25,438 bases of DNA. Origin: a virus. The translations under genes were made by a program, and so were the position numbers. The notes under the pieces were generated by a model, which searched no databases, was not told the DNA's origin, and was given only the letters and a program-made list of their open reading frames with translations. Location of the stretch: the UHGV virus genome UHGV-0213490; one strand, written 5' to 3'. Of the stretch, positions 18,171-18,324 are shown one piece after another; position 1 is the first letter of the stretch; each line of letters starts with the position of its first letter.

Positions 18171-18246
18171 GCCGACTTAGCTCAGCAGGTAGAGCAACTG
18201 ACTTGTAATCATCAGGTCACCAGTTCGATTCCGGTAGTCGGCACCA
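18171..18246 (+). tRNA. tRNA-Thr(UGU)-like, possibly degenerate
   Basis: 76 nt; acceptor stem GCCGACT/AGTCGGC, D-arm GCTC/GAGC, T-loop TTCGATT, 3' CCA; anticodon loop CTTGTAA gives UGU, but the anticodon stem pairs only 3 of 5 and the T-stem has an A-C mismatch. Confidence 0.65.
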
Positions 18247-18249
18247 TAT

Positions 18250-18324
18250 GCGGGTATCGTATAATGGCTATTACCTCAGCCTTCCAAGCTGATGATGCGG
18301 GTTCGATTCCCGCTACCCGCTCCA
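18250..18324 (+). tRNA. tRNA-Gly(UCC)
   Basis: 75 nt; perfect 7-bp acceptor stem, anticodon stem TCAGC/GCTGA with loop CTTCCAA (UCC), T-arm GCGGG-TTCGATT-CCCGC, discriminator U, 3' CCA; near-identical to host glyT from memory. Confidence 0.85.

What the first reader, a model, noticed from the sequence alone, without database searches (positions are those of the whole stretch)
18171..18324. Phage-borne tRNA pair resembling host thrU and glyT, with a disrupted Thr anticodon stem; no stx at the expected locus
The Gly(UCC) tRNA folds perfectly and differs from my recollection of host glyT only by a compensatory base pair. The adjacent Thr(UGU)-like gene has two mismatches in the anticodon stem and one in the T-stem, suggesting a decaying or non-canonical tRNA. 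The pair looks like a captured piece of the host thrU-tyrU-glyT operon with tyrU missing. The following 560 bp, where Stx phages carry stxAB, holds only terminators.
Basis: partly seen in the sequence, partly recalled or inferred. Interest (0 to 1): 0.5.

Follow-up and report, generated by a model that had tools for sequence, protein, structure and literature searches.

The report
Prophage tRNA-Thr/Gly pair, probable nuclease-evading Thr
A defective lambda-like prophage of E. coli carries copies of two host tRNA genes, and the "damaged" threonine copy carries the kind of changes recently shown to protect phage tRNAs from bacterial anti-phage tRNA-cutting enzymes, so it is more likely a counter-defence spare part than a decaying gene.

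Summary
Window 18171-18246 is a tRNA-Thr(UGU) gene and 18250-18324 a tRNA-Gly(UCC) gene. They match host thrU at 73/76 bases and glyT at 73/75, fused by a 3-nt spacer with tyrU deleted. The Thr copy differs from thrU only at U16C, G42U and U43C. The T-stem A52.C62 mismatch is also in host thrU, so it is not a defect.

"Decaying" is not supported. The gene scores 62.0 bits on the Rfam tRNA model, like the functional phage 21 tRNA-Thr (61.5). The 42-43 double-mismatch allele occurs in 17 E. coli genomes, 14 IMG/VR contigs, E. albertii and cultured phage JLK-2012, in at least 8 flank contexts. No single-mismatch intermediates were found.

Papers from 2025-26 show that P2 Old and PARIS AriB kill by cutting thrU in the anticodon stem. 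Phage tRNA-Thr(UGU) escapes Old by altering the paired CNG motif and shortening that stem, which is what G42U/U43C do. U16C impairs AriB cleavage, shown for tRNA-Lys. Gly(UCC) is among the five tRNAs most depleted by Old.

Best reading (about 0.5): a cleavage-resistant spare tRNA-Thr within a codon-supply cassette. Resistance and function are untested, and folding energies argue against easy folding. It is a new member of a known kind.

The parts
14507..14866 (+). Late antiterminator Q (QuuD-type)
   Evidence: Pfam PF06530 Phage_antitermQ, 153 bits.
16955..18001 (+). Orphan N6/N4 DNA methyltransferase immediately upstream of the tRNA cassette
   Evidence: Pfam PF01555, 154 bits. PADLOC MTase_II, 506 bits. 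The same methylase-tRNA arrangement is seen in E. coli relatives and in phage SerU-LTIIb.
18081..18108 (+). Sigma-70-like promoter (TTGAAA-N16-TAATAT), about 60 nt upstream of tRNA-Thr. Probable cassette or late-leader promoter (function inferred).
   Evidence: Consensus scan. Both hexamers are invariant across 11 diverged upstream regions while the spacer varies.
18171..18246 (+). tRNA-Thr(UGU), thrU-derived allele with U16C, G42U and U43C. The anticodon stem is reduced to 3 Watson-Crick pairs and the 3' CNG motif is destroyed.
   Evidence: ARAGORN. Rfam 62.0 bits with mismatch marks. 73/76 identity to K-12 thrU.
18247..18249 (+). 3-nt spacer TAT, the scar of the tyrU deletion
   Evidence: Alignment with the K-12 operon. 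The spacer is TAT in 117 of 121 phage-borne pairs.
18250..18324 (+). tRNA-Gly(UCC), glyT-derived with a compensated C6:G67 to U6:A67 change. The anticodon arm is identical to the host and keeps C28-A29-G30 / C40-U41-G42 and A37.
   Evidence: ARAGORN. Rfam 65.6 bits. 73/75 identity to glyT.
18519..18714 (+). Diverged STnc100-like leader RNA element (weak), ending in the first terminator
   Evidence: Rfam RF02076, 28.6 bits, below the gathering score of 47, E = 4e-4. A full STnc100 match (107 bits) sits at the equivalent place in phage JLK-2012.
18685..18712 (+). Intrinsic terminator 1 (8-bp stem, 6 GC pairs, T8 tail)
   Evidence: Terminator scan.
18733..18758 (+). Intrinsic terminator 2
   Evidence: Terminator scan.
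18844..18867 (+). Intrinsic terminator 3, just before the holin ribosome-binding site
   Evidence: Terminator scan.
18885..20088 (+). Lysis cassette: holin (Phage_holin_8), holin (Phage_holin_3_7) and GH108 endolysin. This is the late operon whose leader holds the tRNAs.
   Evidence: Pfam hits.

Best explanation
SHOWN. The two genes are an intact tRNA cassette, Thr-UGU then Gly-UCC. A family of lambdoid prophages built it from the host thrU-tyrU-glyT operon by deleting tyrU. In this window it sits in a defective, serT-integrated E. coli prophage, downstream of Q and a DNA methylase. A conserved sigma-70-type promoter lies just upstream. Three intrinsic terminators and then the holin/endolysin genes lie downstream.

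INFERRED. The cassette is transcribed as part of the late-operon leader, probably also in the lysogen, and RNase P separates the two tRNAs. Its baseline role is to supply decoders for ACA and GGA. Those codons are 3.1-fold and 2.2-fold commoner in the prophage genes than in a K-12 core sample.

INFERRED from published biochemistry. The Thr copy is a cleavage-resistant spare rather than a dying gene.
- P2 Old cuts host thrU after C28 and after C40, inside the paired CNG motif C28-U29-G30 / C40-A41-G42.
- Phage tRNA-Thr(UGU) escapes only when the CNG motif is altered and the stem is also shortened.
- Here G42U turns CAG into CAU and unpairs C28. U43C unpairs A27, the same pair lost in the resistant tRNA-Thr6 (U43A).
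- The third change, U16C, matches the D-loop substitution that impairs PARIS AriB cleavage of tRNA-Lys. thrU is a prime AriB target.

When such a Toprim tRNase is triggered and host thrU is destroyed, this copy would keep ACA codons readable. The Gly copy keeps the Old recognition motif, so it can help only by dosage.
For: Identity and origin.

Not a pseudogene:
- Rfam scores: window Thr 62.0 bits, thrU 73.8, phage 21 tRNA-Thr 61.5, tyrU 53.4.
- PGAP annotates the same allele as tRNA-Thr in several E. coli genomes.
- The ThrRS identity positions, as I recall them (G1:C72, C2:G71, G35, U36), and the invariant core nucleotides are all present in the sequence.

Spread of the allele:
- 17 of 5426 complete E. 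coli genomes, 30 places, up to 3 per genome.
- 14 IMG/VR contigs, E. albertii and plaque-forming phage JLK-2012.
- At least 8 unrelated flank or array contexts, including Thr-Gly, Ile2-Arg-Thr-Gly, Met-Lys-Thr-Gly, Met-Arg-Thr-Val and Asn-Thr-Gly.

Coupling:
- In IMG/VR, single changes at 42, 43 or 28 number 0 loci. At position 27 only A>G occurs, which keeps a G.U pair (5 loci).
- Other double changes number 0. The Y42-C43 double mismatch numbers 14 loci.
- This matches the published finding that either change alone gives no protection (PMC12445682).

In an unbiased sample of 119 phage-borne copies, substitutions pile up at positions 16 (35 copies), 20 (31), 42 (5) and 43 (5). Most other positions are singletons.

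In JLK-2012 the acceptor and T stems changed only by compensated or wobble substitutions, while 27.43 and 28.42 stayed unpaired.

Literature:
- Old cleavage sites, the CNG rule and the protection given by phage 21 tRNA-Thr (PMC12445682).
- AriB targets Thr(UGU), and U16C impairs cleavage of tRNA-Lys (PMC12409363).
- Old depletes Thr(UGU) and Gly(UCC) most. Lambdoid HK446 tRNA-Thr rescues, while overexpressed E. coli thrU does not (bioRxiv 10.64898/2026.07.10.737580).

Codon demand: ACA 16.5 vs 5.4 per 1000 (odds ratio 3.1, p = 3.5e-13). GGA 13.0 vs 6.0 per 1000 (odds ratio 2.2, p = 1.6e-6).

Weak co-occurrence: one genome (VL7S7) carries both P2-type old and the allele, where 0.05 is expected.
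Against: - Neither cleavage resistance nor function of this allele has been tested. No paper in the searchable library mentions it.
- Nearest-neighbour folding predicts the 3-bp anticodon stem is unstable: 0.0 kcal/mol for the isolated arm against -2.4 for thrU.
- A competing fold is favoured (-25.5) over the cloverleaf (-17.0). U43C strengthens that fold through a G35:C43 pair. The model ignores tertiary contacts and modifications, and it places host thrU in the correct fold only 29% of the time.
- The allele is a minority: about 30 of roughly 1150 prophage copies in E. coli, and 5 of 119 in IMG/VR. 74 of 121 phage copies are identical to thrU, which the papers say gives no protection.
- Some copies of the allele carry further damaging changes and are not annotated by PGAP: G24A in five mouse strains, and several changes in SHP24.
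- The 5' CUG (28-30) and the C40-A41 cleavage dinucleotide are retained.
- The U16C effect was shown for tRNA-Lys, not tRNA-Thr.
- The coupling and the spread could reflect one ancestral dinucleotide event moved about by recombination.
- P2-type old itself is rare, 17 of 5426 genomes.
- This prophage is defective and shows no recognised Gam-like Old trigger.
Confidence: 0.5

Rival explanations
1. One reading: the Thr copy is a hypomorphic or dying gene. A dinucleotide mutation wrecked the top of the anticodon stem. The copy persists only because it hitch-hikes with the functional Gly gene and the lysis module, and it does nothing useful.
For: - Folding model: cloverleaf -17.0 against a competing fold at -25.5 kcal/mol, with an anticodon-stem pair probability of about 0.
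- The Rfam score drops 11.8 bits relative to thrU.
- Some carriers have added lesions and are left unannotated by PGAP.
- ARAGORN fails to call the JLK-type copy in L012 and L138.
- It is a minority allele.
- The host prophage is itself degraded.
Against: - The rest of the gene is untouched in most carriers.
- The allele sits in at least 8 different arrays and in a viable phage.
- No single-mismatch alleles exist, although random decay should make them commoner than doubles.
- Position 42 varies T/C but never reverts to G.
- In JLK-2012 the other stems evolved by pair-preserving changes.
- Its score equals that of a tRNA shown to work, phage 21 tRNA-Thr.
Confidence: 0.25
2. A functional tRNA, but the 42-43 changes are selectively neutral. 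The cassette is purely a codon-supply device for ACA and GGA, like ileZ-argN-argO in Stx phages, and the match to the nuclease-resistance rules is coincidence.
For: - ACA and GGA are 3.1-fold and 2.2-fold enriched in the prophage genes.
- Most phage copies are identical to host thrU, so supply alone evidently suffices to keep the cassette.
- The Gly copy shows no change in its Old motif.
Against: - Neutral drift in a stem is expected to give single mismatches and compensated pairs. The Gly gene shows the compensated kind. An exclusive, uncompensated double mismatch is not expected.
- All three differences from thrU fall on positions with published effects on Toprim tRNase cleavage.
- Thr(UGU) and Gly(UCC) are the first two of the five tRNAs reported as most depleted by Old.
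Confidence: 0.2
3. Altered decoding: loss of the 27:43 and 28:42 pairs changes ribosomal behaviour of the tRNA, for example by relaxing wobble or causing misreading. This is known for 27-43 mutants of suppressor tRNAs (my recollection of Schultz and Yarus, not checked here). The phage would exploit it for recoding.
For: Only the location of the mismatches. There is no direct evidence.
Against: No recoding signal, in-frame stop or frameshift site was noticed in the late genes. The anticodon loop is unchanged.
Confidence: 0.03

Closest known systems
Old-resistant tRNA-Thr(UGU) of lambdoid phages 21 and HK446, and of lytic phages (tRNA-Thr6, T4, Bas32/33). Sources: Govande et al. 2025, NAR gkaf874; Derzhaev et al. 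2026 preprint.
   Same: - A UGU anticodon, encoded by a lambdoid phage between Q/pR' and the holin (phage 21 locus).
- An anticodon stem with an unpaired 27.43 and an altered base at position 42 within the CNG motif.
- A similar Rfam score, 61.5 against 62.0 bits.
   Different: - A different gene lineage. Phage 21 and HK446 tRNA-Thr share only about half their sequence with thrU and are paired with tRNA-Asn. The window gene is thrU itself with 3 changes and is paired with Gly.
- Here both top pairs are lost, leaving a 3-bp stem, and only the 3' strand is changed. Thr21 keeps a U28:A42 pair, and Thr6 changes 30:40.
- Resistance and function are untested here.
tRNA-Thr/tRNA-Gly and tRNA-Arg/tRNA-Gly pairs of the LT-II prophage SerU-LTIIb (GenBank KU052038)
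   Same: The same methylase-tRNA pair-holin module. The flanks are 93% identical over 297 nt, with the same TAT spacer and the same U6:A67 Gly allele.
   Different: - Those Thr copies have G42-U43 (a paired stem) with C16 and C20. One copy has switched its anticodon to UCU (Arg).
- That phage carries LT-IIb toxin genes after the lysis genes. The window has none.
Host thrU-tyrU-glyT-thrT-tufB operon of E. coli K-12
   Same: Gene order and sequence: 73/76 and 73/75 identity, including the native A52.C62 T-stem mismatch.
   Different: - tyrU, the 116-nt spacer and thrT are absent.
- There is no flank homology.
- Promoter and terminators are phage ones.
- Three substitutions lie at nuclease-relevant positions.
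ileZ-argN-argO tRNA cluster upstream of stx in Stx phages (from my own knowledge of 933W and Sakai Sp5, not checked here)
   Same: Rare-codon tRNAs placed after Q and before the late genes. In some E. coli prophages the Thr allele is appended to exactly such an Ile2-Arg array.
   Different: Different tRNA identities, and no toxin genes follow in the window.
T5 tRNA-Lys/Thr/Asn variants that neutralise PARIS AriB (Burman 2024; Belukhina 2025)
   Same: A phage copy of an AriB target. It carries the U16C D-loop change that impairs AriB on tRNA-Lys.
   Different: - The UAAUC|A cleavage-site sequence (36-41) is unchanged in the window gene.
- The U16C effect has not been shown for tRNA-Thr.
- The carrier is a temperate, host-derived gene, not a T5 gene.

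Membership tests
tRNA (Rfam RF00005) | Covariance-model score above the curated gathering score (29 bits) | tested here: met
   Thr 62.0 bits and Gly 65.6 bits. For comparison: thrU 73.8, glyT 64.9, tyrU 53.4, phage 21 Thr 61.5.
tRNA (Rfam RF00005) | Cloverleaf with four paired stems | tested here: inconclusive
   The acceptor and D stems are intact. The T stem is as in the host. The anticodon stem has only 3 of 5 pairs. Thermodynamic folding does not recover the cloverleaf, but it does not recover it cleanly for host thrU either.
Derivative of the host thrU-tyrU-glyT operon | Near-identity of both genes to thrU and glyT, in the same order and orientation | tested here: met
   73/76 and 73/75 identity. 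The order is preserved and tyrU plus the spacer are precisely absent.
Derivative of the host thrU-tyrU-glyT operon | Homology extending into the operon flanks or spacers | tested here: not met
   The alignment shows no similarity outside the two genes.
Toprim-tRNase-resistant phage tRNA-Thr(UGU) (Thr6 / Thr21 / HK446 class) | Phage-encoded tRNA with a UGU anticodon | tested here: met
Toprim-tRNase-resistant phage tRNA-Thr(UGU) (Thr6 / Thr21 / HK446 class) | Altered paired CNG motif at 28-30 / 40-42 | tested here: met
   The 3' strand changes from CAG to CAU (G42U) and C28 is unpaired. The 5' CUG is retained. The rule comes from PMC12445682.
Toprim-tRNase-resistant phage tRNA-Thr(UGU) (Thr6 / Thr21 / HK446 class) | Shortened anticodon stem (loss of the 27:43 pair) | tested here: met
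   U43C gives A27.C43. The stem falls from 5 to 3 Watson-Crick pairs.
Toprim-tRNase-resistant phage tRNA-Thr(UGU) (Thr6 / Thr21 / HK446 class) | Resists cleavage by P2 Old or AriB and rescues their toxicity | not testable with these tools
   This needs in vitro cleavage and in vivo rescue assays. No publication on this allele was found.
Toprim-tRNase-resistant phage tRNA-Thr(UGU) (Thr6 / Thr21 / HK446 class) | Is aminoacylated and decodes ACA | not testable with these tools
   The ThrRS identity elements, as I recall them (G1:C72, C2:G71, G35, U36), are present in the sequence. Charging itself cannot be assessed here.
tRNA pseudogene | Sub-threshold model score or loss of invariant nucleotides | tested here: not met
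   62.0 bits. U8, A14, G18, G19, U33, G53, T54, T55, C56, A58 and C61 are all present.
tRNA pseudogene | The lesion is private to one lineage and accompanied by random further decay | tested here: inconclusive
   The lesion is shared by at least 8 contexts and is mostly clean. A minority of carriers do show extra damage.
Stx-phage tRNA/toxin module | ileZ-argN-argO followed by stxAB between Q and the lysis genes | tested here: not met
   The tRNAs are Thr and Gly. Only terminators and a weak STnc100-like element follow.

The most novel reading that the evidence does not exclude
Lambdoid prophage tRNA arrays are an evolving anti-tRNase arsenal built by minimal editing of captured tRNA genes. 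The thrU G42Y/U43C (plus or minus U16C/U20C) allele would then be a two-step escape from OLD-family or PARIS nucleases that needs both changes at once. The anticodon-switched genes seen in relatives would be a second route, giving nuclease targets a foreign, uncleavable body:
- an Arg(UCU) body reading UUU (Lys);
- a thrU body reading UCU (Arg);
- a glyT body reading UAC (Val).
In lysogens such alleles would also protect the host cell from abortive-infection tRNases carried by rival prophages.
Probability: 0.3. Interest if true: 0.7.

Novelty: new member of a known kind. Interest (0 to 1): 0.45.

Why it matters
If the allele resists cleavage, it is the smallest natural edit known that makes the host's own thrU immune to P2 Old: two adjacent bases, on an otherwise identical tRNA. 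That would be a clean natural control for how Toprim tRNases read the anticodon stem.

It would also show that temperate, even defective, prophages of pathogenic E. coli lineages carry counter-defence tRNAs in the same slot that holds Stx-phage tRNAs. The same arrays occur in ETEC, STEC and LT-II strains.

It would extend the tRNA arms race beyond large lytic phages and tie it to the classic P2-lambda interference.

Practically, it warns annotators that a "mismatched" phage tRNA may be adapted rather than broken.

Tried and rejected
- Minimum-free-energy folding of the single tRNAs. It does not recover the cloverleaf even for host thrU, so it cannot decide function. I kept it only as evidence against.
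- A shifted register, C28-A31 pairing with U42-G45 around a 10-nt loop. It is possible for the TC allele but not for the CC allele, so I dropped it as a general explanation.
- The genome-contig scan for the allele gave a single hit, the E. albertii type strain. It was not the source of the window.
- The supplements of the Old paper are not held. I could not check whether the allele was in their 245-tRNA library.
- Literature searches for thrU-type prophage tRNAs or for this allele found nothing relevant.
- I looked for pR' between Q and the methylase. There was no convincing site, so the late promoter assignment stays inferred.
- I looked for a Gam-like Old trigger among the early genes. None was recognised.
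- Cross-tabulating the allele with P2 old was possible only for P2-type old at DNA level: 17 genomes, overlap 1. That is too small to weigh.
- I rejected the 'Stx phage lacking stx' framing. The element is a serT-integrated, Rac-like, LT-II-phage-related prophage.

Full report
**1. What is there**

ARAGORN finds tRNA-Thr(UGU) at 18171-18246 and tRNA-Gly(UCC) at 18250-18324. The Rfam tRNA model scores them 62.0 and 65.6 bits against a gathering score of 29. Its alignment flags two non-pairs at the top of the Thr anticodon stem (A27.C43, C28.U42) and one in the T stem (A52.C62).

Against E. coli K-12 (locus L001):
- The Gly gene differs from glyT only by C6U plus G67A, a compensated pair.
- The Thr gene differs from thrU only at U16C, G42U and U43C.
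- The T-stem mismatch is already present in thrU, so it is not a phage lesion.
- Aligning the whole operon shows the two genes in host order. tyrU and the tyrU-glyT spacer are cleanly removed, 'TAT' is left between the genes, and there is no homology outside them.

One of the three mismatches it cited is ancestral.

**2. Context**

The flank at 24450-25438 is 99.7% identical to E. coli serT-hyaA. The host is therefore E. coli and the element sits at serT.

The window holds, in order:

| Feature | Coordinates | Evidence |
|---|---|---|
| Integrase | 1-1020, minus strand | |
| RecE-like exonuclease | 1307-3565, minus strand | |
| DicB, YdaT, replication genes | early region | |
| hok/sok | sok at 11485-11659 | |
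| Fic, DUF968, RusA | 12211-14526 | |
| Q antiterminator | 14507-14866 | |
| Kiwa defence system (KwaB, KwaA) | 14888-16299, minus strand | PADLOC 495 and 277 bits, |
| Orphan DNA methylase | 16955-18001 | |
| The two tRNAs | 18171-18324 | |
| Two holins and a GH108 endolysin | 18885-20088 | |
| Tail-fibre fragment and its assembly protein | 22781-24069 | |

No head or tail genes are present. It is a defective, Rac-like lambdoid prophage.

Upstream of tRNA-Thr, TTGAAA-N16-TAATAT (18081-18108) matches a sigma-70 promoter. Both hexamers are invariant in 11 diverged relatives while the spacer varies.

Downstream, three strong terminator hairpins (18685, 18733, 18844) precede the holin. Ten terminator-like sites were found in the scanned region against 2.7 expected. 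A sub-threshold STnc100-like element ends in the first terminator. Phage JLK-2012 has a full STnc100 match at the equivalent place.

The layout copies that annotated for phage 21: Q, pR', terminator, tRNA-Asn, tRNA-Thr, holin. I infer that the tRNAs lie in the late-operon leader and can be made without Q. This is not shown.

**3. How common the cassette is**

- The 301-nt region is covered at 80% or more in 204 complete E. coli genomes.
- Phage SerU-LTIIb carries two such pairs.
- Of 121 phage-borne copies, 74 are identical to thrU, and 117 have the same TAT spacer.

In an unbiased sample of 119 copies, substitutions concentrate at positions 16 (U>C, 35 copies), 20 (U>C, 31), 42 (5) and 43 (5). 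Most other positions are singletons.

**4. The 42-43 allele**

The window's TC allele, or its CC variant, is found in:
- 17 of 5426 complete E. coli genomes, at 30 places and up to 3 per genome;
- 14 IMG/VR contigs;
- the E. albertii type strain;
- the plaque-forming phage JLK-2012. Its Thr gene joins a phage-21-like 5' half to a thrU-like 3' half that carries TC.

No other deposited phage has it.

Its neighbours differ widely: Thr-Gly behind the methylase, Ile2-Arg-Thr-Gly, Met-Lys-Thr-Gly, Met-Arg-Thr-Val, Met-Thr-Arg-Gly and Asn-Thr-Gly. Only L135 and L018 share the window's flanks.

A coupling test in IMG/VR gave:

| Change | Loci |
|---|---|
| Single change at 42 | 0 |
| Single change at 43 | 0 |
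| Single change at 28 | 0 |
| Change at 27 | 5, all A>G, which keeps a G.U pair |
| Other double changes at 42-43 | 0 |
| Y42-C43 double mismatch | 14 |

Random decay should give more single than double mismatches. In JLK-2012, the acceptor and T stems changed only by compensated or wobble substitutions, while the two top anticodon-stem pairs stayed open.

**5. Why those positions matter**

Govande et al. (PMC12445682) show the following.
- P2 Old, the effector of P2-lambda interference, kills by cutting host tRNA-ThrU after C28 and after C40, inside the paired CNG motifs C28-U29-G30 / C40-A41-G42.
- Phage tRNA-Thr(UGU), including that of lambdoid phage 21, rescues the cells.
- Resistance needs both an altered CNG motif and a shorter anticodon stem. 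Examples are U43A plus G30C/C40G in Thr6, and C28U/G42A plus an unpaired 27.43 in Thr21. Either change alone is ineffective.

The window allele does both with two adjacent bases. G42U destroys the 3' CNG motif and unpairs C28. U43C unpairs A27.

Belukhina et al. (PMC12409363) show that thrU is a prime target of PARIS AriB, which cuts between positions 40 and 41. They also show that U16C impairs AriB cleavage of tRNA-Lys. U16C is the third and last difference between the window gene and thrU.

[quoted passage not shown] It shows strong counter-defence by the tRNA-Thr of lambdoid HK446 and none by overexpressed E. coli thrU.

The window's Gly copy retains C28-A29-G30 / C40-U41-G42 and A37. It is therefore predicted to remain Old-sensitive and could help only by dosage.

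**6. Baseline function**

In 28 window genes, ACA runs at 16.5 per 1000 codons and GGA at 13.0. In 42 K-12 core genes the figures are 5.4 and 6.0. The odds ratios are 3.1 (p = 3.5e-13) and 2.2 (p = 1.6e-6). ACG and GGG are not enriched. Codon supply therefore explains why the cassette as such is kept, including the many copies identical to thrU.

**7. Against the counter-defence reading**

- Nothing about this allele has been tested experimentally.
- ViennaRNA gives the isolated anticodon arm 0.0 kcal/mol, against -2.4 for thrU. It gives the cloverleaf -17.0, against a competing fold at -25.5 that U43C strengthens. The model is weak here: it places host thrU in the right fold only 29% of the time.
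- The allele is a minority.
- Some carriers have extra lesions (G24A, or several changes) and are left unannotated by PGAP.
- The 5' CUG and the C40-A41 dinucleotide remain.
- One dinucleotide event spread by recombination could mimic the coupling.
- P2-type old occurs in only 17 of 5426 genomes. One of them (VL7S7) also carries the allele, against 0.05 expected. My own arithmetic gives P of about 0.05, and it rests on a single genome.

**8. Verdict**

The pair is a real, host-derived prophage tRNA cassette.

| Reading of the Thr copy | Estimated probability |
|---|---|
| Cleavage-resistant spare tRNA-Thr(UGU) on the published Old/PARIS escape principle | about 0.5 |
| Hypomorphic or decaying copy | about 0.25 |
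| Functional tRNA with a neutral polymorphism | about 0.2 |
| Altered decoding | about 0.03 |

Relative to what is known, it is a new member of a known kind. The principle, and even a lambdoid example (phages 21 and HK446), were published in 2025-26. This host-derived, two-base allele and its spread through E. coli prophage arrays were not found in the literature searched.

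Noticed in passing
window 14888-16299 (minus strand): A complete Kiwa anti-phage system is inserted between Q and the methylase. KwaB (294 aa) scores 495 bits on PADLOC and KwaA (173 aa) scores 277 bits. The Q-to-lysis interval thus holds a defence system, an orphan methylase and the variant tRNA side by side.
   Followed up: partly
L003 1122-1197; L141 2398-2474 and L013 7057-7133; L142 2558-2629 and L128 2795-2866: Anticodon-switched tRNA genes occur in related prophage arrays. One has a thrU body with anticodon UCU (Arg). One has an Arg(UCU)-type body with anticodon UUU (Lys), with 14 differences that include compensated stem changes. 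One has a glyT body with anticodon UAC (Val) plus A38G and a 1-nt deletion in the 3' acceptor strand. Lys(UUU) and Val(UAC) are reported AriB and Old targets.
   Followed up: partly
L136 2495-2570 (phage JLK-2012): This is a chimeric tRNA-Thr. The 5' half is identical to phage 21 tRNA-Thr, and the 3' half is thrU-like with the same TC allele. It sits in a Q-Asn-Thr-Gly array. Asn(GUU) and Thr(UGU) are both AriB targets.
   Followed up: partly
IMG/VR loci L005-L124 (thrU-like copies): U16C and U20C, both D-loop uridines, are the commonest substitutions in phage-borne thrU copies, at 35 and 31 of 119. This hints at selection on the D loop, which AriB is modelled to contact.
   Followed up: partly
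window 18519-18714: There is a sub-threshold match to the sRNA family STnc100 (28.6 bits against a gathering score of 47, E = 4e-4) ending in the first terminator. A full match (107 bits) lies upstream of the late genes in JLK-2012.
   Followed up: partly
window 11485-11809: A hok/sok type I toxin-antitoxin locus: sok RNA at 118 bits, with a 70-aa ORF at 11597-11809 overlapping it.
   Followed up: no
window 1307-3565 (minus strand): A 752-aa exonuclease combines an Exonuclease VIII (RecE) region with a C-terminal Rv2179c-like 3'-5' exoribonuclease (DEDDh) domain.
   Followed up: no
window 12211-12705: A Fic/Doc-family protein is encoded in the nin-like region of the prophage.
   Followed up: no
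window 1-24613: The prophage is defective. About 24.5 kb separates the integrase from serT (tRNA-Ser UGA at 24526-24613, minus strand). There are no head or tail genes, only a tail-fibre C-terminal fragment and a tail-fibre assembly gene.
   Followed up: partly
NZ_CM177009.1 (E. coli VL7S7): This is the only complete genome that carries both a P2-type old gene (96.8% identity) and the TC tRNA-Thr allele (2 places). Each feature occurs in 17 of 5426 genomes.
   Followed up: partly
L126 (IMG/VR 3300000059_000177): This contig has the CC allele of tRNA-Thr next to a tRNA-Gly copy with C28U. That is the only Gly copy seen with a change inside its own CNG motif.
   Followed up: no
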